IMG/VR virus record: IMGVR_UViG_2609460059_000005
DNA from: a virus
Lineage: Duplodnaviria; Heunggongvirae; Uroviricota; Caudoviricetes
DNA length: 10,335 nucleotides
Strand: one strand, 5' to 3'
Within the stretch, counting starts at the first letter, position 1. The number at the start of each line of letters is the position of its first letter. Shown here in pieces: positions 79 through 10,214 of this stretch. The notes beneath the pieces were generated by a model. It searched no databases and was not told the DNA's origin. It worked only from the letters and a program-made list of their open reading frames with translations. The translations under genes were made by a program, and so were the position numbers.

Positions 79-1059
79 TTAGAGATCTAAGCTCTGCTGT
101 GTTGGTTCTGCTCTCAGATTTAAATCTTCACTAAAAATATAATCCATAATTTCTTTCAATTCAGTTGGCATTAGAAAAGATAAAGATTTTCGATTTTCCT
201 CTGAAAAGCTCAATTCCGGTCTTAAATTATATGTATTAGGTAAGTACGGATTAGCAATTTTCTTCGAATATTTATAAGCATATTCAACTGTGTGAGCAGT
301 ACCGCTTTTTATCTTCCACTCCACAGGAATAAGAGATGTGCACAGCGCAGCTTGAATTCTATTGCGTCTTACAAAATTTTCAGCGCTATAAATTTGGTCA
401 GGCAAATATTCAGTGACAATTGCACCTCCGCTTAAAACTATTTGATTGTAGAGATTTTTAGATCCCTTGGGATATTCTACAAAAATCCCGTTACCTAACA
501 CTGCAATTGTAGGTATCCCATAACGAATAGATTCATAATGGCATGATTGGTCAATCCCAGTAGCTAAACCACTTACAGTAACTATATCTTTTTCATACAA
601 CCCAGATACAATTAGTTTAACCAGAAAAATGCCATCATCTGTTGGCTTTCGCGTACCAACGATTGCAATTGATTTCTTATTAAGAATATCTTGATTCCCA
701 TGAACAAAAAGCCAAAAAGGAGGATCACTTATATTCTTTAAATTAGTTGGGAAAGTAGGTTGATCAAAAAAGGTTAGAACAATTCCTTTTTTATTTAATT
801 CTCTCGCTCGTTCTAATCCTTTCGCCCACAACTCTTGTTGAAATTCCTCCCACGCGATATCTTTGGGTAACGCAACCCTTAGATATCCAGCCAAAGCATC
901 AGCTGAACTAGCTTTTAAAAGATTTTTAAACCCTAGTTTGGATTCGTATATTTTACGGAGAGTCCAATAACCAACACCTTTTAAGCAGGTCAACGCAAGA
1001 AATGCTATGATTTCATTTTTCCAAAACTCTCTAATTTCAGTGTAATCTTTATCTTCCAT
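79..1059 (-). CDS. DprA/Smf-like (SLOG/Rossmann-fold) protein, 326 aa, in AT-rich cargo DNA
   Basis: Provided ORF. N-terminal segment LALTCLKGVGYWTLRKIYESKLGF resembles the DprA SAM/HhH-like domain. Core has SIAIVGTRKPT, VSGLATGIDQSCH, TIAVLGNGIFVEYP, RRNRIQAALC and KSGTAHTVEYA, matching the DprA Rossmann-fold pattern from memory. Composition is much more AT-rich than the adjacent sid/delta/primase block. Confidence 0.65.
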   Translation of the reverse strand: MEDKDYTEIREFWKNEIIAFLALTCLKGVGYWTLRKIYESKLGFKNLLKASSADALAGYLRVALPKDIAWEEFQQELWAKGLERARELNKKGIVLTFFDQPTFPTNLKNISDPPFWLFVHGNQDILNKKSIAIVGTRKPTDDGIFLVKLIVSGLYEKDIVTVSGLATGIDQSCHYESIRYGIPTIAVLGNGIFVEYPKGSKNLYNQIVLSGGAIVTEYLPDQIYSAENFVRRNRIQAALCTSLIPVEWKIKSGTAHTVEYAYKYSKKIANPYLPNTYNLRPELSFSEENRKSLSFLMPTELKEIMDYIFSEDLNLRAEPTQQSLDL

Positions 1060-1448
1060 TTTTTTGCCTTATAGATTACAACTCACGCAATACTAATAAC
1101 AAAAATAATCATATTGTAGACATGTTATAAATAACATTTTAGCATCCATTTGTGAAGAGGCATCTTCTTACCTTTCCACGTTCTACAATCGCTAACTTAG
1201 TATGTCTTGTAACTCTTTTTGTCGTTTAACTACCATCCTCTCATACTCCCTGATTCCACTTATGAACCCAATCAATACACAGGCAGCAGTTTTTCTTCTT
1301 TCTGCGGTTGATAGAACGATATATCAGCTTTTGGTGGTACCAAAGATTCTATTCATAAATTTATCTCGCAAGTGATCAAACACACATACTCTTTCAACTT
1401 CTTTACTCAGCGCGCGCAGCCCCGCCCGCCTGCCCGCTTCGCTTAACA

Positions 1449-1639: not shown

Positions 1640-1912
1640 TCAGACAGGGATTTGCTGACGGCTTGATAACTTTGATGCAGAGCCATAGCGATTGAGCGTT
1701 TTCTTTTGCTTTTCAGGCTCTTCCGGTTCATCTGATTCCTGTTCATTGCGCCGGGGTTTCATAATTATCGTATCCACACTTTCCAGTGCGGTAAATGTGC
1801 AGGAACATTCAAGATTCTGGCACTGATACCATGAGCGTTTAACCGATGGTGCTTCATAGGCGGAGGTTCTGGCGTGTGCCGTAGTGCCGCATTCGGGACA
1901 TTTAAGTGCCAT
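1640..1912 (-). CDS. Ogr/Delta-family zinc-finger late-gene transcriptional activator (P4 Delta-like, single domain), 90 aa
   Basis: MALKCPECGTTAHARTSAY...YQCQNLECSCTFTALES matches the C-x2-C ... AHARTS ... QCQN-x2-CS-x-TF signature of P2 Ogr / P4 Delta. SD GGAGG lies 7 nt upstream. Start overlaps the stop of the upstream gene (TGATG). Confidence 0.85.
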   Translation of the reverse strand: MALKCPECGTTAHARTSAYEAPSVKRSWYQCQNLECSCTFTALESVDTIIMKPRRNEQESDEPEEPEKQKKTLNRYGSASKLSSRQQIPV

Positions 1913-2673
1913 CAGATACCCTCCGCGGCTCGGTTACGTTTTTGCAGTTCTTCACGTTCCTGCCGGATCTTCATTTTATGAAGGGCCGCCGGAGAGGGAA
2001 GTTTGCGGAAATCAGCAAGGGCAGCATAATCCGGCGCAACACCTGCCAGTTTAAATACCGGGTCCTGTTCCGGCATCGCAGCGTTAGTAAGAGCCGGTTT
2101 GGTGATATGTTTGTGAATAAATTCTTTCAGTACTGTGTCCGGGTCATTAACTGAATTCACCACACCCACAACGGCACTGGCTTCCCGCCCCATTGTGGTT
2201 TTGAGCAGGCTCAGTGTCTGGATTAACGCCTTACCATGCGACTGCATGAAGTCTTCCCAGATTTGCTTTGCGCGAATTTCCACAAGGGTGTTATGTGCGC
2301 TGATATACTGCCCGGCTAATTTCCCGGCCTCCTGCGGTAATAAGGCATTTTCGCTTTCCTGAGCTGCCAGCAGTTCATCAAAATCCTCAAGCGTTTCTCG
2401 TCCCAGCGCAATTTCCGTGCGCAGTTTTTTCATTTCCTTTGAGACTACGCCCTGACTTTCACGAAACAGCGTGCGCCATTCCTCATTCAGCGCGTTAGTC
2501 GTGGCTTCCATTTCAGCGCGGCGCTGGCGGATTGTCGCAATATTATCTGCTGCCGCTTTTTGCTGACGACGTGCTTCAAGCCATGCGTTTCTGGTTGTGT
2601 TCAGGGTTTCCAGTGCCCGCTGCGTTACAGCCGGAAAAGTGGAAAGGCTGGTATTCTCTGCGGTGTTGTTCAT
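1912..2673 (-). CDS. Putative Sid-like capsid size determination (external scaffold) protein, 253 aa
   Basis: Provided ORF with SD AGGAG 6 nt upstream. Alpha-helical, charged, low-complexity composition. Immediately precedes and is translationally coupled to the Ogr/Delta homologue, as in the P4 sid-delta pair, and size is close to P4 Sid. Family assignment rests on context and recalled similarity, not a search. Confidence 0.5.
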   Translation of the reverse strand: MNNTAENTSLSTFPAVTQRALETLNTTRNAWLEARRQQKAAADNIATIRQRRAEMEATTNALNEEWRTLFRESQGVVSKEMKKLRTEIALGRETLEDFDELLAAQESENALLPQEAGKLAGQYISAHNTLVEIRAKQIWEDFMQSHGKALIQTLSLLKTTMGREASAVVGVVNSVNDPDTVLKEFIHKHITKPALTNAAMPEQDPVFKLAGVAPDYAALADFRKLPSPAALHKMKIRQEREELQKRNRAAEGI

Positions 2674-2706
2674 GACTTCTCCTGTCGGGTTGCTTCGTTA
2701 CGTCAA

Positions 2707-2726
2707 TTGTGTCGTGGCTGACACAA
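2707..2726. promoter_or_regulatory. Dyad-symmetric element TTGTGTC-N6-GACACAA upstream of the sid-like gene
   Basis: Perfect 7-bp inverted arms at 2707-2713 and 2720-2726. It contains TGT-N12-ACA, the pattern described for Ogr/Delta-activated late promoters of P2/P4. Its centre is only about 43 nt from the sid ATG, closer than the canonical -55 position. Confidence 0.35.
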
Positions 2727-2848
2727 GCGCACTATCGGTGCTCAGTGTGTGGTGGCTGGCACAACGGGCGTTTTCAGTTATTCAGGCGTGGCTATGAAAG
2801 CCAGCCAGATAAAAATGCCTCGGTTTCAGTCTGCGTTATGTCCCTGCA

Positions 2849-3047
2849 GTGGTGGAACAGGTGAAACATGTGTTACATCATTGTTTTATAAATTATTTAT
2901 ATGCACAGCACAGGTGGAACATCGCGGGTAACAAGGTGGAACAGCGGATCGGCTGGCGTTCCACCTGTTCCACCTCACTATTTCAAAAGGTGGAACAGGC
3001 TCAGCCCTTATAAAATACGGTTGTTCCACCTGTTTCACCTGTTACCC
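2849..3047. repeat. Iteron cluster, putative replication origin, immediately downstream of the primase gene
   Basis: At least 8 copies of GGTGGAACAG / CTGTTCCACC in both orientations (about 2851, 2913, 2935, 2958, 2965, 2989, 3022), plus degenerate copies GGTGAAACA (2860) and TGTTTCACC (3031). The motif resembles the P4 type I iteron TGTTCACC as recalled. No regular spacer structure. Confidence 0.6.
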
Positions 3048-3073
3048 TTAATAAATAAGACTCACGCAAAGCC

Positions 3074-5746
3074 TTAACCCGGCACCTCGCTGTTGAAGAC
3101 ATAGAGTCTGCGGGGATTCATCTCTGGCGGGCGAATGGTTGTCTGTAGCTTGCCATCGGTGGAGGGCAGCAGGTATCCACGATCCGCGCACAAACGCGCC
3201 ACCTTGCGCGGGTCAAATCCCCGGCAGATTTCTTTCCAGCCGGACGGCATGACGTAGAACGTGGTGACGGCTTCCGTGCCCTGCGCGGTACTCCCTTTCT
3301 CCACCCTGCGCCAGCCCACCATATTGCCGGGGCGGTTGCGCTCGTCGTGCCAGTCTGCAAAGCGGCTGTACTGATTCGCGGTAAAGAAACTGCGTACCTG
3401 CTCCAGCGCGGCAATATCTTCCTGATTGGCAGTATGCCCGCGATCTTTCAGCCATGCGTTCAGGCAGACGCGGGTTGCCCGCAGGGCTTCTCCCTCAGGC
3501 CAGCCGGTGATCCCCATACGGGTTGCCAGCTCGCCCGCCATCGCCACCAGTGCAAATCGGTTGACGGCCCGGCCCACCTGATTACCCGCATCTTTCGGGG
3601 TCAGCGCGGCGGTATATTCCTTCATCAGTGACTTTGCCTGTGACGTCAGCCCGTTAAGGTCAGCGGTCAGGGCTTTCAGCCACTCCCGGAACGGCGAACC
3701 GTAGTAGCTGGACGTGGCCCACTCCAGATGTTCCGCCAGTGCCTTGCCGCTGTCGAAGCCGTGCAGCTCCTCAAATACGCCAAATTTCCCGGAATCGCTG
3801 GGGATCTGGATCATCCTGACTTCCATCCCGGCAAAGGTACGCTCACCAGCTTTTGCCGCATGTTCGGTCAGTGACAGCTCGCCGGTTGAAAAGAACAGCA
3901 GCCGCCACTGCTTACGGGTGCGCAGCTCACCGTCCGTACCGGCACGGCCCTTGCCCTGACCGTTTGCCAGCATGTAGGCGATATTGCCTGCCTCGCGTCC
4001 GTCCACCTCCCGGATCTCATCGAGCATCATGGCGGCATCGTTGCGGCGGCTGGCGCATCCCTCCAGCGCGTTGCCGGTTGCCCGCCACGTCTGCCAGTAG
4101 TCAGGCCCGCCGCAGACGGAGGTTGCCGCTTTCATTGTGGTGGTCTTACCGTCCGTCGATTCCCCCTTGAGGTGATAGCCGCCGCCGTCCATACCAACCA
4201 ACCGTAACAGGGGGGCAGCAAACGCCAGACTGACGGCAAACGCCACGCGGGAGTTGCCGGTGCAGTAGCGGGAAACGTGCTCCCGCCATTCCTCCGTTGT
4301 GCCCGACACGCGGAAATCGCGACCCTGCACGGAAGTGGTCTGGAGAATGACACCCTCTGCACCTTCACCGCTGACCTCATCCTGCAGGACGTAAACCTGA
4401 CCATGCCAGCCGGTGCGGCTGACGCAGGTCACGCGGCGTTCCGGTTTACAAAGAGAGATATATTCCATAAGGCGTGCGCGGGCCTCACCGGTGGTGCTGA
4501 TATAGGACAGCCCGTTGACCAGCAGTACCCGGCGCAGCTCCTCACCGCTGCCGCTCAGCATTTCCATCGGCATCGCCCAGCGGCGGCGCTCACCCCACGT
4601 ATCTTCCCACTCCAGCAGTCGCCCGAAGTTACCGCCATCAGCATCGCAGGTGATTGCCGTTACGCGCAGCGGGTTGCATATTTTGACGTTCTGGATTTCC
4701 GTTTCACCGTTGCGCTGTACCTGTTTTTCATACCAGAGATATTCCTGGGTTAGACGGAACCCGTGCGGCAGTTGCGTGCGGCCCTCCCCGCACAGCACCA
4801 GACCGTTGCGAAAGGCTTCACGGGCACGGTTAATACCGTGCTCCCGATGGAAATCATTCCAGTCGGCCTTGATCTCTCCCGGTGGCAGCGTCATCCAGCC
4901 GCCAACGGCTTTTGCCGCCCGTTCAGCAAAAGATCTGCCGGGATTCTCGCCCCCGTCCTGAAAATCGTTATCACCGGCGATGATAATTTTTACCTCAGGC
5001 CAGCGTGCCCGCAGCGCCTGTGCGACGTTGGGCAGGTTGCCAGCAGATATGGCAGCCACTACGCATCCGGCGGTGATCTGGCTCACCGTCAGTGCCGTGG
5101 CGTAACCTTCGGTAATCACCACCTGTACCGGTGGTTCAGACGGTAACGGGCTGAGCGCCACAAACGCGCCTTTCATCGTGCTGCCGGGCAGTATGCTTTT
5201 TTCACCCGTCGGGGCGATAAGCTGCGCACCGGTCACGGCTCCAGCGTTGGTCGTGAGCGGTAGCAGCAGGGAGCCGGCAGGGAAATCCTTACCGCTGATA
5301 TGCTGCACGCTCCCGGTCAGGGGGGCCGGGTATCCGGCGAACCCTTTTCCGGTCAGATAGGGGCTTTCTCCCGTATGGCTCTCTTTCATCAGCGCCGCCA
5401 CGGTAAGGTTCATGTCGCGTTTAGGAGCTTTTTGCCTGGCGGGCTTAACGGGCAATTTCTGCACATCCGGAATATTAAGCACCTGCGCCACCTCCTGCGC
5501 GGCCTTTCTGACACCGTAACCGGTCATGAGCTTAACCAGATCCAGACCATCACCATTGCCGCACTGGCTGCAAATCCACGTCCCGCGCCCGTCAAGGTCA
5601 TCGAGGCGAAAACGATCCTTGCCCCCACATTTCGGGCAGGGACCGTGTCTGCCGTTTTCAGGTACATCAATACGCAGCATCTGCAGAATGACGGGCCATT
5701 TCCCCCGCGCGGCGGCTGAAATCTGCGTAACCGTCTGTGTTGTCAT
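3074..5746 (-). CDS. Primase-helicase (P4 alpha-like): N-terminal Zn-ribbon, Toprim domain, C-terminal Walker A/B NTPase; 890 aa
   Basis: Zn-ribbon CPKCGG...CSQCGNG. Toprim motifs VVITEGYATA and IIIAGDNDFQDGGENPGR. Walker A GESTDGKTT and Walker B-like MMLDEIRE. SD GGGGGA upstream. Start overlaps the stop of the upstream ORF (ATGA). Confidence 0.9.
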   Translation of the reverse strand: MTTQTVTQISAAARGKWPVILQMLRIDVPENGRHGPCPKCGGKDRFRLDDLDGRGTWICSQCGNGDGLDLVKLMTGYGVRKAAQEVAQVLNIPDVQKLPVKPARQKAPKRDMNLTVAALMKESHTGESPYLTGKGFAGYPAPLTGSVQHISGKDFPAGSLLLPLTTNAGAVTGAQLIAPTGEKSILPGSTMKGAFVALSPLPSEPPVQVVITEGYATALTVSQITAGCVVAAISAGNLPNVAQALRARWPEVKIIIAGDNDFQDGGENPGRSFAERAAKAVGGWMTLPPGEIKADWNDFHREHGINRAREAFRNGLVLCGEGRTQLPHGFRLTQEYLWYEKQVQRNGETEIQNVKICNPLRVTAITCDADGGNFGRLLEWEDTWGERRRWAMPMEMLSGSGEELRRVLLVNGLSYISTTGEARARLMEYISLCKPERRVTCVSRTGWHGQVYVLQDEVSGEGAEGVILQTTSVQGRDFRVSGTTEEWREHVSRYCTGNSRVAFAVSLAFAAPLLRLVGMDGGGYHLKGESTDGKTTTMKAATSVCGGPDYWQTWRATGNALEGCASRRNDAAMMLDEIREVDGREAGNIAYMLANGQGKGRAGTDGELRTRKQWRLLFFSTGELSLTEHAAKAGERTFAGMEVRMIQIPSDSGKFGVFEELHGFDSGKALAEHLEWATSSYYGSPFREWLKALTADLNGLTSQAKSLMKEYTAALTPKDAGNQVGRAVNRFALVAMAGELATRMGITGWPEGEALRATRVCLNAWLKDRGHTANQEDIAALEQVRSFFTANQYSRFADWHDERNRPGNMVGWRRVEKGSTAQGTEAVTTFYVMPSGWKEICRGFDPRKVARLCADRGYLLPSTDGKLQTTIRPPEMNPRRLYVFNSEVPG

Positions 5747-6438: not shown

Positions 6439-6792
6439 TCAGAGAAACTTTGAATAGTGACTGTCGTCAGGTTCAGCAGAACGCCGTATGCTGCGCTCCC
6501 GCCAACGGGTAAATACCACAGACGGATGTAGTGTCAGAGAGCCACTACCGCCCTTCGGAGCTGGCGAAGGTTTAAAGAGCGGCGCATCAAACAGGCGCGT
6601 ATACCGCTGTTCAAACCATGCCAGAGGGCAGGAAGAAAGCTGGTTGTCGCTGTCATGACGTATCAGCACTTCACAGCTGAATTCAGGATTAACCAGCGCC
6701 ACGGAGGGCGAGGCTTCAATTAATCGGATGATTGTGACGGTCCAGCCACGTTCATGCTGCCAGCGTTCGCCGGGTTGCGGATAATTATGCAT
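6439..6792 (-). CDS. Hypothetical protein, about 117 aa, in the primase operon
   Basis: Start set at the internal Met (MHNYPQPGERW...) because GGAGGTG lies 5-6 nt upstream of it; the first ATG of the provided ORF at 6822 has no SD. Confidence 0.5.
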   Translation of the reverse strand: MHNYPQPGERWQHERGWTVTIIRLIEASPSVALVNPEFSCEVLIRHDSDNQLSSCPLAWFEQRYTRLFDAPLFKPSPAPKGGSGSLTLHPSVVFTRWRERSIRRSAEPDDSHYSKFL

Positions 6793-6961
6793 GTTCACCT
6801 CCGCAGGGAATGCGACCGGCAAAGCTCAGCACGTAGTCCGGGGCCAGTCTGCGCCGCGCTGAGCGCTCGTTATCTGCGGTGATCCTTAACATCACAGGAC
6901 AGGCATTGCGTTGACTGCGGTTGATCGCAGCAAATAACCAGGTACACTTCTTTTTAGCCAT
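6785..6961 (-). CDS. Small basic protein, 58 aa, first gene of the primase operon; possibly Icd/Ash-like
   Basis: Only the C-terminal part of the provided 245-aa ORF is taken as coding: ATG at 6961..6959 is preceded by GAGGAAACGAAG (SD GAGGA). Sequence is MAKKKCTWLFAAINRSQRNACPVMLRITADNERSARRRLAPDYVLSFAGRIPCGGEHA. The Icd/Ash-like label is from memory of small P4-type proteins and is weak. Confidence 0.4.
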   Translation of the reverse strand: MAKKKCTWLFAAINRSQRNACPVMLRITADNERSARRRLAPDYVLSFAGRIPCGGEHA

Positions 6962-7051
6962 CTTCGTTTCCTCATACAGCGGATTGGTCAGAGGCCCGGT
7001 TAGTGTTGCTGCACTGCCGGGCTTCGCCTTTTTCACCCTAGAACACTCAAG

Positions 7052-7130
7052 GTGTGGCCCACTATAAATATTAGGTGTGGCCCACGTCAATGCTTTTCTT
7101 TGTTCTTTTCCCGTGTATACTGTGGCCCAC
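7052..7130. promoter_or_regulatory. Divergent promoter region with three copies of the palindromic operator-like motif (G)TGTGGCCCAC
   Basis: GTGTGGCCCAC at 7052-7062 and 7075-7085, TGTGGCCCAC at 7121-7130. The core GTGG-C-CCAC is dyad-symmetric. Minus-strand sigma70-like promoter: -35 TTGACG (complement of 7085-7090) and -10 TATAGT (complement of about 7061-7066), with copy 2 in the spacer. Plus-strand -10 TATACT at 7115-7120, with copy 3 at the predicted start site. Confidence 0.5.
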
Positions 7131-7151
7131 CAAACATACGGAGATTCAGTA

Positions 7152-7337
7152 ATGGCTACCGGTACAAAGAATGCTAAATCACAAGCCTTAAAGGCACGAG
7201 TGCCACATGACGTAGTTGAAGCGATGGAAATGGTGAAAGAAGAGGACGAAAGTACGTCACAATTCATCATTACATCCATGCAAAGTGAGATCAAACGCCG
7301 CCAGCGCAGGAAAGTTAAGCCAGAGCAAGGAGGCTGA
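7152..7337 (+). CDS. Small putative DNA-binding regulator, 61 aa, ribbon-helix-helix-like
   Basis: Start taken at the internal ATG at 7152 with SD GGAG 8 nt upstream. Sequence MATGTKNAKSQALKARVPHDVVEAMEMVKEEDESTSQFIITSMQSEIKRRQRRK has a strand-helix-helix pattern. The operator repeats lie just upstream, suggesting autoregulation. Confidence 0.5.
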   Translation: MATGTKNAKSQALKARVPHDVVEAMEMVKEEDESTSQFIITSMQSEIKRRQRRKVKPEQGG

Positions 7338-7401
7338 ATAGAGAAGCTAACAGACGTTCTCTCAGGCTCCATGCTAATTTCAGTAAGCGACAATATTTTT
7401 A

Positions 7402-7433
7402 AGCCCACAAACTCAATATGTCGGGCTTTTTTA
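7402..7433 (+). terminator. Putative rho-independent terminator between the convergent small regulator and alpA
   Basis: AGCCC...GGGCT hairpin at 7402-7426 followed by TTTTTTATT. Sits between two convergent genes and may act in both directions. Confidence 0.4.
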
Positions 7434-7664
7434 TTAGTGATTTGCATGCCGTTCACCACGAGAGGCATATATTTGCTCTTGAATCCAGTGATCGACTTCG
7501 CTTTCAACAAATGAAATTGCACGAGTTCCTATTTTTACTGGGCGGGGAAATGTATTATTTGAAAGCTGTTTGTAAAGCCATGCCTTGCTACGCTGAACGC
7601 GTCTTAACACCTCTTTTGCTGAAATAAGAGTCTGATTATCTGAAAGGTTGTTTGCATATTCCAT
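7434..7664 (-). CDS. alpA: AlpA/Vis-family phage transcriptional regulator (excisionase-like HTH), about 76 aa
   Basis: Start set at the internal Met (MEYANNLSDNQ...) with SD GGAG 8 nt upstream. LISAKEVLRRVQRSKAWLYKQLSNNTFPRPVKIGTRAISFVESEVDHWI matches the AlpA-family pattern. Gene lies near a P4-type integrase, as is typical. Confidence 0.75.
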   Translation of the reverse strand: MEYANNLSDNQTLISAKEVLRRVQRSKAWLYKQLSNNTFPRPVKIGTRAISFVESEVDHWIQEQIYASRGERHANH

Positions 7665-7928
7665 CTTGTTACTCCGTGTTCTACTTAAGTTCACGGTGAC
7701 TTTAAACACTGAAAAAAAGTGATTCTAGTGATAATGGAATCTATTAATACAAACGCTGATTCTATTGAAACGTGATAGTTTCTACTGAAAAAAGAAATAA
7801 TGTTCATATGAAAGAACACGAGAAGAGGAAAACGCACAACAAAATAAAATCAATAAAATTCATATAGATAGCATTGCAGCACAAACAAATCATACGTTAG
7901 AAGGTATTATTGCGTTTTATCGATTCAT

Positions 7929-8702: not shown

Positions 8703-9965
8703 TTATTTTCCATGCACACGCGCAAAATCATATGGTGTGATAGATCCATTCTTGTTAGCATCAATGTAATCAGCCCACCATTGCAGCATTAATTTTCTTT
8801 CTTCAAGATATTCAGAAGTATGCATATATGAACCTTTCACGTTTTTTCGTTCAACGTGACTTAGCTGTCTTTCAATGGCATCATCATTCCATAGTTTCGA
8901 CTCACTTAGCGCACCACGCGCCATAGTTCTAAAACCATGCCCACATACTTCTGTCTTCGTATCATATCCCATTACACGTAAGGCGCTATTTACAGTATTT
9001 TCACTCATAACTTTTTTAGGATCATGATCGCTGGGAAATATAACCTCGCCTTTACCGCTCAAGGCATGTAAACGTTTAAAAATATCAAATGCTTGTTTGC
9101 TAAGCGGAACAATATGTTCAGTTTTCATCTTCATCCCACGCTCAGAGTGTTTTACGCCGGGAATAGGTTTACGAATTCCGGGTATCGTCCACTCGCTTCG
9201 TTCAAAGTTAACCTCACTCCAGCGAGCAAAACGCATCTCACTTGAACGAATAAATGTGAGTAGCGTTAATTCAACGGCAAGCCGTGTCATTAGTCGCCCT
9301 TTATAGCGTGATAGTCTTTCAAGAAACTCAGGGATTCTTTTTGGGGGTAGTGCTGGGTGATGGGTTGCCTTAACGCTTAAAAGCGCTCCAGCCATATCAC
9401 TGGCAGGATTTGATTCAAGAAGGTCATTCTGCACACCGAAACGCATAATTGCGGTTACGCGCTGCATCAGTCGCTGCGCAACATCATGTTTACCTGCCGC
9501 ATCAACAGCTTTGATCGGATTGAGAAGCTGGCTGGTTCTCAACATTCTGGCGTCAATTTGACCTATCGAGGGGAAAATATACTGCTCAAGCGTCAGCAGA
9601 ACGCGACGGCTATGATCTTCGCTCCAAGTTAGGTTACTTGCGTGCCATTGCCTTGCGATAGTTTCAAATAAATATGCCCCCTCAATTTCAGCTTGTGCCC
9701 CCTTTTGCTCAGCTTTGGGGTCAATGCCCTGAGACAACAATTTCTTTGCTGCATCACGCTTACCCCGAGCCTCAGCCAAAGTGATCGTCGGGTATACACC
9801 AAAAGCGAGCCGATCTTCCTTTTTGTCAGATGGGCGGCGATATTTCATGCGCCAATACTTGGAACCTTTTGGGGAGACTTCAAGATACAAGCCGCCTCCA
9901 TCAGCCATTTTATAGGCTTTCTCTTTCGGCTTTGCGGTCTCTATCTGGCGAGCATTGAGTTTCAT
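8703..9965 (-). CDS. int: P4-type tyrosine integrase (site-specific recombinase), about 420 aa
   Basis: Start set at the internal Met (MKLNARQIETAKPKEKAYKMADGGGLYLEV...), a typical P4-family integrase N-terminus. C-terminal catalytic region has HGFRTMARGAL and the Y-containing KGSYMHTSEY. Gene is adjacent to, and co-oriented with, the tRNA-Leu 3' end. Confidence 0.9.
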   Translation of the reverse strand: MKLNARQIETAKPKEKAYKMADGGGLYLEVSPKGSKYWRMKYRRPSDKKEDRLAFGVYPTITLAEARGKRDAAKKLLSQGIDPKAEQKGAQAEIEGAYLFETIARQWHASNLTWSEDHSRRVLLTLEQYIFPSIGQIDARMLRTSQLLNPIKAVDAAGKHDVAQRLMQRVTAIMRFGVQNDLLESNPASDMAGALLSVKATHHPALPPKRIPEFLERLSRYKGRLMTRLAVELTLLTFIRSSEMRFARWSEVNFERSEWTIPGIRKPIPGVKHSERGMKMKTEHIVPLSKQAFDIFKRLHALSGKGEVIFPSDHDPKKVMSENTVNSALRVMGYDTKTEVCGHGFRTMARGALSESKLWNDDAIERQLSHVERKNVKGSYMHTSEYLEERKLMLQWWADYIDANKNGSITPYDFARVHGK

Positions 9966-10019
9966 TTTGGGGGCACAAATCCTGATCGAATTGACATGCC
10001 CCCGATTATGCCCCCAAAA
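9965..10019. promoter_or_regulatory. Inverted repeat TTTTGGGGGCA ... TGCCCCCAAAA flanking the integrase start and 5' leader
   Basis: 11-bp arms at 9965-9975 and 10009-10019, with an extra TGCCCCC at 9997-10003. The left arm abuts the int ATG (9963-9965). No strong SD precedes the int start. Confidence 0.35.
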
Positions 10020-10129
10020 GAGGGTAGACCACAAGAGACCAACAAAGACCATGAAATACGGTAACTTGCTTGTTTTTAAGGATTTTTTCTGGATTTGTAG
10101 ACTTCAGGAAACGTCAAAAGAAGTGTTAA

Positions 10130-10214
10130 TGGTGCCGAAGGCCGGACTCGAACCGGCACGTATTTCTACGGTTGATTTTGAATCAACTGCGTCTACCGAT
10201 TTCGCCACTTCGGC
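10130..10214 (-). tRNA. leuX: tRNA-Leu (anticodon CAA), leuX-type
   Basis: Reverse complement reads GCCGAAGTGGCGAAATCGGTAGACGCAGTTGATTCAAAATCAACCGTAGAAATACGTGCCGGTTCGAGTCCGGCCTTCGGCACCA. It has a 7-bp acceptor stem, a CAA anticodon in a 7-nt loop, a long variable arm, a GGTTCGAGTCC T-arm and a CCA end. Confidence 0.9.

What the first reader, a model, noticed from the sequence alone, without database searches (positions are those of the whole stretch)
2849..3047. Dense bidirectional iteron array GGTGGAACAG/CTGTTCCACC just after the primase stop: likely element origin
At least eight near-identical 9-10-bp copies in both orientations fall within about 200 bp, next to an AT-rich stretch (TTGTTTTATAAATTATTTATATG). 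The motif is one base different from the P4 type I iteron bound by alpha protein, as recalled. It is probably the primase's cognate origin, and its position between primase and sid is informative about element organisation.
Basis: partly seen in the sequence, partly recalled or inferred. Interest (0 to 1): 0.45.

Follow-up and report, generated by a model that had tools for sequence, protein, structure and literature searches.

The report
Replication origin of a P4-like satellite prophage
The repeat cluster is real and is very probably the replication origin of a phage-satellite prophage, sitting right after the primase-helicase gene that should bind it. It is a sound, useful annotation of a known kind of origin, not a new mechanism.

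Summary
Nine copies of GGTGGAACA (at most 1 mismatch) plus two degenerate copies, in both orientations, lie at 2851-3047. They start 26 bp after the stop of an 890-aa primase-helicase on the minus strand and enclose a 36-bp block of 17% GC.

The interpretation as the cognate origin is supported by comparison, not by experiment. In 59 of 74 related loci (36-99% protein identity) the densest repeat cluster of the whole ~12-kb locus lies directly after this gene, and in 3 more about 1.1 kb further on. The layout is the same in each: about 7 iterons, an AT-rich block, then 2-3 iterons. The iteron sequence is lineage-specific and changes in all copies together. No second cluster exists.

One correction is needed. 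The protein matches P4 alpha only in its primase domain. Its helicase and C-terminal winged-helix region are of the SaPIbov1 Rep/Cch (DUF927) type. SaPI Rep origins lie immediately after the rep gene.

So this is a single SaPI/PICI-type origin, not a P4 ori+crr pair, although its iteron differs from P4's by one inserted base. It sits 88 bp upstream of a P4-Psid-like late promoter driving Sid-like and Delta-like genes. It is a new member of a known kind, of moderate interest.

The parts
3074..5746 (-). Pri-Rep initiator, 890 aa. Residues 32-68 form a zinc ribbon and 208-305 a Toprim primase; this N-terminal part is P4-alpha-like. Residues 330-640 are a DUF927 MCM-like helicase. Residues ~641-890 are a helical region plus a C-terminal winged helix, the predicted iteron-binding domain.
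   Evidence: Pfam finds Zn_Ribbon_Prim, Toprim_3 and DUF927. It is 37% identical to P4 alpha over aa 6-316 only. phmmer hits SaPIbov1 Rep 8tch (4.6e-15) and Cch 5dgk (2.9e-13). The AF2 model of aa 641-890 hits 8tch, TcpK wHTH and Cch. The CxxC pairs, E213, D259/D261, K534/T535 and D576/E577 are invariant in 16 homologs.
2851..3047 (.). Whole iteron array (predicted ori): 9 good and 2 degenerate copies of GGTGGAACAG/CTGTTCCACC.
   Evidence: The region carries no annotation in the 331 E. coli genomes that hold it.
2913..3047 (.). Gene-proximal iteron set. Copies lie at 3039-3047, 3030-3039, 3021-3030, 2989-2998, 2965-2974, 2956-2965, 2935-2944, 2926-2933 and 2913-2922. It includes a perfect 12-bp inverted pair, 2964-2975 / 2988-2999.
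   Evidence: The positions are conserved in alignment A3 across loci of 65-99% protein identity.
2870..2912 (.). AT-rich block, the predicted DNA-unwinding element. Its AT-richest 36-mer is 2868-2903 at 17% GC.
   Evidence: Iterons lie on both sides of the AT-richest 36-mer in 56 of 56 related arrays, at a median of +151 bp from the stop.
2851..2869 (+). Distal iteron pair (GGTGGAACAG, GGTGAAACAT). It is in the opposite orientation to the five CTGTTCCACC-type copies of the proximal set.
2708..2763 (-). Adjacent Psid-like late promoter with two TGT-N12-ACA Ogr/Delta-type sites (2708-2725, 2746-2763). It is not part of the origin but shares the intergenic region.
   Evidence: The sites are 38 bp apart and the proximal one lies 35 bp from the ATG. 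P4 Psid has the same geometry (9493-9510 and 9531-9548, sid ATG at 9583). The region is conserved in A3.
1912..2673 (-). Sid/Psu-family capsid-size protein (253 aa), the first gene after the origin.
   Evidence: It matches phrog_6165 at 2.7e-92. It is 24% identical to P4 Sid over the full length, E 1e-12. There is a weaker C-terminal match to Psu.
1640..1912 (-). Ogr/Delta-type zinc-finger late activator (90 aa).
   Evidence: Pfam Ogr_Delta at 3e-16. It matches both halves of P4 Delta.

Best explanation
The array at 2851-3047 is the vegetative replication origin of a P4-like satellite prophage integrated at tRNA-Leu(CAA). The proposed mechanism is as follows. The 890-aa Pri-Rep encoded just upstream binds the 9-10-bp iterons through its C-terminal winged-helix domain. 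It assembles as hexamers on the oppositely oriented iteron sets on either side of the 17%-GC block at 2868-2903 and melts that block. It loads itself as an MCM-like (DUF927) helicase without a separate loader. Its own N-terminal zinc-ribbon/Toprim domain then lays down primers. The sequence and comparisons show the anatomy, its conservation, its linkage to the gene, and the homology of the helicase and C-terminal region to SaPI Rep. Iteron binding, melting at the AT block, self-loading and priming are inferred from SaPI Rep, EcCICFT073 and P4 alpha.
For: The array is far beyond chance: 7 matches against 0.51 expected, with 0 of 200 shuffles reaching 7. It starts 26 bp after the Pri-Rep stop. 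In 59 of 74 related loci the densest 8-mer cluster of the ~12-kb locus lies right after the homologous gene. In 3 more it lies 1.1 kb downstream. The top 8-mer occurs 4-12 times inside each array and almost never elsewhere in the locus. Iteron positions are invariant and spacers diverge in alignment A3. The fifth iteron base changes in all copies together (G in the window, L003, L031 and L050; T in L006, L012, L008 and L049). Iteron type differs by lineage, for example GGTGGAACA, GGTGTAACA, GGGGTAACA, CTGGTAACA, TGGATACA, GTAGTACA and GGGTTACA. An AT-rich block flanked by about 7 and 2-3 iterons is present in 56 of 56 arrays. The array stays with the helicase gene even where no Sid or Delta gene follows. 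It is also present in the inducible Pseudomonas satellite phiAH14b. The helicase and C-terminal region are homologous to SaPIbov1 Rep and Cch. SaPI Reps bind 6-12 iterons placed immediately 3' of rep, around an AT-rich centre, through a C-terminal winged helix (PMC9371898, PMC7581432). The same layout was shown to be required for replication in EcCICFT073 (PMC6092414). Columns that best predict iteron class are enriched in aa 791-890 (11 of the top 30; P=0.016) and especially in aa 846-878. The catalytic motifs of the protein are intact.
Against: No binding or replication experiment exists for this element or this protein family in Proteobacteria. The C-terminal model is only moderate (pLDDT 75, pTM 0.52, TM about 0.33 to 8tch). 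The iterons are 9-10 bp, not the 5-6 bp of SaPIs, and they are split asymmetrically around the AT block (9 against 2). Twelve of 74 loci show no array within 450 bp of the stop; three of them have one 1.1 kb away and the rest are mostly distant relatives. Fine mapping of specificity residues was not clean. Only positions 750, 861 and 878 are fixed differences between close G-type and T-type relatives, and the residues do not transfer between clades. The covariation enrichment is confounded by phylogeny, and the 846-878 window was chosen after seeing the data.
Confidence: 0.8

Rival explanations
1. The array is only a crr-like auxiliary cis element, an enhancer of replication as in P4, and the true initiation site lies elsewhere in the element.
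For: In P4 the iteron cluster directly 3' of alpha is crr, not ori.
Against: No second cluster of the motif exists in the window or within about 5 kb either side of the gene in 60 related loci, except the distant L066 and L076. The array carries its own flanked AT-rich block. It also lies next to a Psid-like promoter, which is where P4 ori lies. The initiator is of the SaPI Rep type, which uses a single origin (PMC9371898).
Confidence: 0.05
2. The main role of the array is transcriptional. It would be an operator or roadblock array that autoregulates the early operon or insulates it from the sid-delta late operon.
For: No intrinsic terminator is predicted between the Pri-Rep stop and the late promoter. 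The array sits exactly between the two transcription units.
Against: The array is equally conserved in relatives that have no Sid/Delta operon downstream. The flanked AT-rich block and the Rep-type helicase point to an origin. A regulatory side-effect would be compatible with origin function and is not an alternative to it.
Confidence: 0.06
3. The array is a copy-number control (handcuffing), incompatibility or partition site for the plasmid state and is not the initiation site.
For: Iterons of plasmids also serve in handcuffing (general knowledge). P4 can persist as a plasmid (PMC6092414 cites the two P4 replicons).
Against: No partition genes are present in the window. There is a single array with an AT-rich unwinding block. 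This module is essentially chromosomal: only 2 plasmid records match, both 655-kb replicons.
Confidence: 0.04
4. The feature is a structured RNA or DNA hairpin, for example a 3' UTR element of the primase transcript, or a decaying non-functional repeat relic.
For: The minus-strand transcript of 2840-3073 folds far better than shuffles (-87.2 kcal/mol, z = -6.1).
Against: The strong fold follows trivially from the inverted iterons. Tandem direct copies and unequal numbers per orientation (6 against 5) are not explained by pairing. No Rfam family and no terminator-like site is found. Conservation of motif identity, not just complementarity, across 36-99% protein divergence argues for protein binding and against decay.
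Confidence: 0.03

Closest known systems
SaPI replication origins with their Rep initiator-helicases, especially SaPIbov1 Rep (PDB 8TCH; Rep2 type, MCM-like/DUF927)
   Same: The origin lies immediately 3' of the initiator gene. It has 6-12 short iterons in both orientations around an AT-rich region. The initiator is a self-loading helicase with a C-terminal winged-helix domain (PMC9371898, PMC7581432). The helicase and C-terminal region of the window protein are homologous by sequence and predicted fold.
   Different: This element is Gram-negative. The primase is fused to the helicase and is of the P4-alpha Toprim type. The iterons are 9-10 bp rather than 5-6 bp. The split around the AT block is asymmetric (9 against 2). 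The hijack genes downstream are P4-type (Sid, Delta).
Gram-negative PICI EcCICFT073 pri-rep-ori module
   Same: The order int, alpA, Icd-like gene, pri-rep, ori is unidirectional. Two sets of iterons flank an AT-rich region immediately 3' of pri-rep. Replication there depends on both rep and ori by experiment (PMC6092414).
   Different: Its Pri-Rep is not homologous to the window protein. It matches instead the helicase plus origin-binding half of P4 alpha at 41% identity. Its iteron is GGTAGACAG. Capsid and PerC genes follow it, not Sid/Delta.
Phage P4 ori and crr with alpha protein
   Same: The iteron is nearly the same: GGTGAACAG in P4 against GGTG(G/A)AACAG here. The array is next to a Psid-type promoter, as P4 ori is, and directly after the primase gene, as crr is. 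The N-terminal primase domain is homologous. The att site is the same, with the attP core 88% identical over 34 nt.
   Different: P4 has two clusters about 4.7 kb apart, and here there is one. P4 has a terminator between alpha and crr, and none is found here. The helicase and origin-binding domain of alpha are unrelated to those of the window protein. PDB 1KA8 is not among the top fold matches. The exact P4 8-mer is absent from the array.
SCCmec Cch (DUF927) and Cch2 helicases with a putative downstream origin
   Same: Cch is a DUF927 homolog of the window helicase. For the other helicase, Cch2 (a different, D5-type family), binding to repeats just downstream of its own gene has been shown (PMC7581432).
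   Different: No origin has been defined for Cch itself. Only three iterons were found for Cch2. The primases are different and separate.

Membership tests
SaPI/PICI-type origin (iteron ori adjacent to Rep) | Located immediately 3' of the initiator-helicase gene | tested here: met
   The first iteron copy ends 26 bp after the stop at 3074-3076. The same holds in 59 of 74 homologous loci.
SaPI/PICI-type origin (iteron ori adjacent to Rep) | Six to twelve short iterons | tested here: met
   There are 9 copies with at most 1 mismatch plus 2 degenerate ones. The unit is 9-10 bp, against the 5-6 bp described for SaPIs (PMC9371898).
SaPI/PICI-type origin (iteron ori adjacent to Rep) | AT-rich region with iterons on both sides, at least two per side in opposite orientation | tested here: met
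   A 17%-GC block lies at 2868-2903. Two + copies lie distal to it, and the proximal set includes five - copies. The block is off-centre (9 against 2 copies).
SaPI/PICI-type origin (iteron ori adjacent to Rep) | Initiator is a Rep-type self-loading helicase with a C-terminal winged-helix domain | tested here: met
SaPI/PICI-type origin (iteron ori adjacent to Rep) | Rep binds the iterons specifically, and rep plus ori drive autonomous replication | not testable with these tools
   This needs EMSA or footprinting and a plasmid maintenance assay.
P4 ori/crr replicon | Type I iteron TGTTCACC | tested here: not met
   The window unit carries one extra base (TGTT(C/T)CACC). The exact P4 8-mer occurs once in the window, at 6792, outside the array.
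P4 ori/crr replicon | Two separate cis elements, ori and crr | tested here: not met
   There is a single cluster in the window and in about 12 kb of 58 of 60 related loci.
P4 ori/crr replicon | Alpha protein with a D5-type helicase and the 1KA8-type origin-binding domain | tested here: not met
P4 ori/crr replicon | Alpha-type zinc-ribbon/Toprim primase domain | tested here: met
   37% identity over aa 6-316, E 4e-47.
P4-like satellite (core gene set of PMC8628076 / PMC10085698) | Integrase, AlpA-type regulator, Sid, Delta, Psu, epsilon and alpha | tested here: inconclusive
   Present: int, an HTH regulator and Icd-like gene, a Sid-like gene and Delta. No separate psu was found in the window. 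Epsilon was not searched. Alpha is represented only by its primase half. The gene order int, alpA, pri-rep, ori, sid, delta differs from the psu-delta-sid ... alpA-epsilon-alpha order described in PMC10085698.

The most novel reading that the evidence does not exclude
The array may be more than an origin. No terminator separates the Pri-Rep gene from it, and a Delta-dependent Psid-like promoter lies only 88 bp beyond it. Pri-Rep occupancy of the iterons could therefore gate read-through from the early operon into sid-delta. Conversely, early-operon transcription could help to open the AT block. Either way, replication initiation would be physically coupled to expression of the capsid-hijack genes. 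A related reading is that the near-P4 iteron, kept despite an unrelated binding domain, reflects a shared constraint such as a CTG primase start site. That reading is weakened by EcCICFT073, which keeps ...ACAG without the Toprim domain, and by Burkholderiales variants that lack CTG.
Probability: 0.12. Interest if true: 0.55.

Novelty: new member of a known kind. Interest (0 to 1): 0.35.

Why it matters
The 400-bp intergenic region is unannotated in the 331 of 5,426 complete E. coli genomes that carry it. Nearly identical elements occur in Citrobacter, Enterobacter, Pantoea, Pseudocitrobacter and Shigella.

Assigning the region as origin plus late promoter gives a testable minimal replicon (pri-rep plus about 230 bp) for a common class of P4-like satellites.

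The result also shows that the replication module of satellites is a portable cassette of initiator plus adjacent origin, exchanged between P4-like and other islands. P4 alpha itself looks like a mosaic of two such initiators.

The natural series of iteron variants (G, T or A at one position, and other cores) paired with closely related C-terminal domains is ready material for studying how origin specificity and incompatibility evolve among co-resident satellites.

Tried and rejected
- blastn of the intergenic region against the phage collection found nothing.
- blastn of the window against P4 found only int, the att core and part of the primase. It found no match in the array region.
- A sliding-window identity comparison was meant to find a swapped specificity domain between relatives with G-type and T-type iterons. 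It showed no block swap.
- Only three fixed differences were found after aa 320 (750, 861, 878), and the residues do not carry over to the L050/L049 pair. No recognition code can be claimed.
- The column-wise mutual-information result is suggestive but confounded by phylogeny.
- The terminator and sigma-70 promoter scan of 2600-3150 found nothing. Rfam found only the tRNA.
- A profile comparison with the P4 alpha origin-binding domain was negative.
- The search for a second, crr-like cluster was negative.
- I considered DnaA and IHF sites in the AT block by eye. I found only one-mismatch matches and dropped them.
- I considered a single-inversion scenario linking this gene order to that of P4. 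It does not reproduce P4's order, so I dropped it.
- The first CFT073 fetch missed the pri-rep gene, and the second got it.
- Ziegelin et al. 1993 could not be read. Statements about alpha binding type I iterons therefore rest on the features of the P4 GenBank record, on citations in PMC8628076 and PMC6092414, and on my own knowledge.

Full report
**What is in the window**

The window is a satellite prophage integrated at tRNA-Leu(CAA), which lies at 10130-10214. Its att core is 88% identical to the P4 attP core, and its integrase is 69% identical to P4 int at the DNA level. All ten ORFs assigned below lie on the minus strand; RefSeq annotates one small plus-strand gene (YlcI/YnfO family) in the closest E. 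coli relative. In order from the tRNA they are:
- the integrase (8703-10052)
- a 212-aa ORF
- an HTH/AlpA-type regulator and an Icd-like gene (RefSeq annotation of the closest E. coli relative)
- a DUF5375 gene, as in P4 orf106
- an 890-aa primase-helicase (3074-5746)
- a 400-bp intergenic region
- a Sid/Psu-family gene (1912-2673), 24% identical to P4 Sid over its whole length
- an Ogr/Delta zinc-finger gene (1640-1912)
- a DprA-like cargo gene (79-1059)

**Checking the observation**

Reading one search gives eleven units between 2851 and 3047.
- Six are in the + orientation: 2851, 2860, 2913, 2926 (degenerate), 2935 and 2989.
- Five are in the reverse orientation: 2956, 2965, 3021, 3030 and 3039 (degenerate).

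The 10-mer with at most one mismatch occurs 7 times against 0.51 expected. None of 200 shuffles reached that number, and all copies lie inside the array. The 9-mer gives nine copies in the array and a single stray copy elsewhere.

The AT-rich stretch is at 2881-2903. The AT-richest 36-mer (2868-2903) has 17% GC against 48% overall. The primase stop is at 3074-3076, so on the gene's strand the array begins 26 bp after the stop.

P4's type I repeat, read from the annotated P4 record, is GGTGAACAG/TGTTCACC. The window unit GGTG(G/A)AACAG differs from it by one inserted base. The exact P4 8-mer is not present in the array.

**The protein next to the array**

This is where the P4 analogy needs correcting. 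The 890-aa protein resembles P4 alpha only in the zinc-ribbon/Toprim primase domain (aa 6-316, 37% identity, E 4e-47). Nothing beyond aa 316 aligns.
- Residues 330-612 match Pfam DUF927.
- By sequence, residues 415-643 match SaPIbov1 Rep (PDB 8TCH, 4.6e-15) and the SCCmec helicase Cch (5DGK, 2.9e-13).
- The P4 alpha origin-binding domain (1KA8, identified) is not among the top matches. A profile comparison with it gives a probability of 0.2%.

The catalytic and zinc-binding residues are invariant in 16 homologs, so the protein looks functional.

The experimentally validated Pri-Rep of the E. coli PICI EcCICFT073 is the mirror image. It is unrelated to the window protein. It is 41% identical to the helicase plus origin-binding half of P4 alpha. 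P4 alpha therefore shares one half with each of the two satellite initiators.

**Comparative test of the origin hypothesis**

A scan of one genome per species gave 78 loci that encode relatives of the protein at 36-99% identity.
- In 59 of the 74 loci with enough downstream sequence, the densest 8-mer repeat window of the whole ~12-kb locus lies directly after the homologous gene.
- In three more (L038, L046, L063) an array of 10-11 GTGGGAACA units lies about 1.15 kb downstream.
- Each array has 8-15 units within about 200 bp, starting 20-45 bp after the stop, with a recurrent orientation pattern.
- The unit differs by lineage: GGTGGAACA, GGTGTAACA, GGGGTAACA, CTGGTAACA, GTGGTAACA, TGGATACA, GTAGTACA, GGGTTACA, GCGGTTAC, TGGGGACA and others.
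- In each locus the commonest 8-mer occurs 4-12 times in the array and essentially never in the remaining ~12 kb. No second, crr-like cluster exists except in two distant relatives.

An alignment of eight intergenic regions shows invariant columns at the iteron positions and diverged spacers. The fifth base of the unit changes in all copies together. It is G in the window, in Citrobacter L003, in Shigella L031 and in Serratia L050. It is T in Pantoea L006 and L012, in Yersinia L008 and in Brenneria L049.

The AT-richest 36-mer has iterons on both sides in 56 of 56 arrays. In the Enterobacterales loci it typically has about 7 on the gene side and 2-3 beyond, at a median of 151 bp from the stop.

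The array follows the helicase gene whatever lies downstream. Sid-like genes follow in 12 loci and Delta-like genes in 18, all among the closer relatives (57-99% protein identity). Sid-like genes occur only where identity is at least 73%. The remaining loci, including most at 57-68% identity and all of the distant ones, keep the array without them.

The inducible, packaged Pseudomonas satellite phiAH14b is the best hit in the phage collection. It carries at least 11 GGGGAACAG units in the 310-bp gap after its DUF927 helicase gene. The paper describing it does not mention iterons or an origin of replication.

That criterion is not met.

**Which part of the protein reads the iterons**

This could only be approached indirectly. 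Between close relatives with G-type and T-type units, only three positions after aa 320 are fixed differences (750, 861, 878). Two of these lie in the predicted winged helix, but the residues do not transfer to another G/T pair.

Across 46 Enterobacterales sequences, 11 of the 30 columns most informative about iteron class lie in aa 791-890 (5.8 expected, P=0.016). Eight lie in aa 846-878, which covers the predicted recognition helix and wing (P=3e-4, but the window was chosen after seeing the data). This fits a C-terminal winged-helix reader, but it is confounded by phylogeny.

**Mechanism**

The literature gives the working model. SaPI Reps are self-loading initiator-helicases. Their C-terminal winged helix recognises 6-12 iterons that lie immediately downstream of rep and surround an AT-rich region, with oppositely oriented iterons on the two sides (PMC9371898, PMC7581432). 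Gram-negative PICIs have the same layout, and in EcCICFT073 both rep and ori are needed for plasmid maintenance (PMC6092414).

By homology of the initiator and identity of the architecture, I conclude that 2851-3047 is the single vegetative origin of this element. Pri-Rep would bind the iterons, melt the 2868-2903 block, load itself and prime with its own Toprim domain. The anatomy, its conservation, its linkage to the gene and the homology are shown here. Binding, melting, loading and priming are inferred. I put the confidence at 0.8.

**Relation to P4**

In P4, crr lies directly after alpha and ori lies directly upstream of Psid. Here one array occupies both positions, because the sid-delta operon follows the primase gene head to tail.

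The rest of the intergenic region is a Psid-like promoter. Two TGT-N12-ACA sites (2708-2725 and 2746-2763) lie 38 bp apart, with the proximal site 35 bp from the ATG. P4 Psid has exactly this geometry. The nearest iteron is 88 bp from the distal site, against about 80 bp in P4.

The element therefore works like P4 in its late control and hijack genes. It works like a SaPI/PICI in gene order and replicon type. It fails three of the defining features of the P4 ori/crr replicon: the exact iteron, the two cis elements and the alpha-type helicase with its origin-binding domain.

The near-identity of the iteron to P4's, despite unrelated binding domains, is unexplained. Given how many unit variants this family uses, coincidence within a common GG...ACA(G) theme is the simplest reading.

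**Rivals**

- A crr-like auxiliary role is unlikely without a second cluster.
- A purely transcriptional role does not explain conservation in elements that lack the late operon. A side role as a roadblock is possible, since no terminator is predicted between the primase stop and the promoter.
- The strong single-strand fold (z = -6.1) follows from the inverted units. It does not explain the tandem direct copies.
- No Rfam family matches the region.

**Novelty and interest**

The 400-bp region occurs in 331 of 5,426 complete E. coli genomes with no annotated feature. It occurs in only two plasmid records, both 655-kb replicons.

Full-text searches found no description of iterons for DUF927 primase-helicases outside staphylococcal elements. 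The surveys of P4-like satellites do not discuss origins.

An iteron origin immediately 3' of a Pri-Rep gene is nevertheless an established kind of element. This is a new member of that kind, with a chimeric initiator and a P4-type neighbourhood. A specialist would find it useful and tidy, not surprising, and I score the interest at 0.35.

Noticed in passing
window 2708-2763: Two TGT-N12-ACA dyads (Ogr/Delta-type activator sites) lie 38 bp apart, with the proximal one 35 bp upstream of the Sid-like ATG. P4 Psid has the same geometry (P4 9493-9510, 9531-9548, sid ATG 9583). This is probably the late promoter of the sid-delta operon.
   Followed up: partly
window ~1406-1445 (minus strand): A GC-rich stretch, AAGCGGGCAGGCGGGCGGGGCTGCGCGCGC, resembles the P4 cos junction (AAGCGGGCG|GGCGAGGCGGGGAAAGCACCGCGCGC). 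Homology to E. coli relatives starts here, so it also marks the border of the variable cargo region.
   Followed up: partly
window 79-1059 vs L001 2866-5820: The cargo slot after delta/cos holds a DprA-like gene in this window. The closest E. coli relative (NZ_CP126931) holds an ABC-three-component system there. This fits the known defence/cargo hotspot of P4-like satellites.
   Followed up: no
window 3074-5746; L002 4636-6969; L082 10242-11996: P4 alpha looks like a mosaic. Its primase half matches the window protein (37% identity), and its helicase plus origin-binding half matches the EcCICFT073 Pri-Rep (41% identity). The window protein and the EcCICFT073 protein are unrelated to each other.
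   Followed up: yes
L083 (KU708005 9150-9650), about 145-380: The Pseudomonas satellite phage phiAH14b has at least 11 GGGGAACAG/CTGTTCCCC units in the gap after its DUF927 helicase gene (p16). The paper describing it does not mention iterons or an origin of replication. This is a likely undescribed origin.
   Followed up: partly
L038, L046, L063, about +1.15 kb from the primase stop: In three Enterobacterales relatives (Klebsiella spallanzanii, Scandinavium, Apirhabdus) the iteron array (GTGGGAACA x10-11) is displaced about 1.1 kb downstream. An inserted gene between initiator and origin would explain this, but I did not check for one.
   Followed up: no
window 7801-7818: The near-perfect palindrome TGTTCATATGAAAGAACA also fits TGT-N12-ACA. 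It lies about 130 bp upstream of the AlpA-like regulator gene. It may be a P_LL-like late promoter site or an operator.
   Followed up: no
window 2769-2778 and 2821-2830: A 10-nt direct repeat, CGTTTTCAGT / CGGTTTCAGT, lies 52 bp apart between the late promoter and the iteron array. It has two copies only and may be chance. It is unexplained.
   Followed up: no
L003, L005, L007, L031, L039, L042: Primase genes 96-99% identical to the window's occur in Citrobacter, Pantoea stewartii, Enterobacter, Shigella flexneri and Pseudocitrobacter. L042 (Enterobacter intestinihominis) also has an identical integrase and orf212. This indicates recent spread across genera.
   Followed up: partly
window 6785-7522: The mechanical 245-aa ORF is over-extended. 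Only its C-terminal ~50 residues match the Icd-like cell-division inhibitor family, and RefSeq annotates a 58-aa protein there in relatives.
   Followed up: partly
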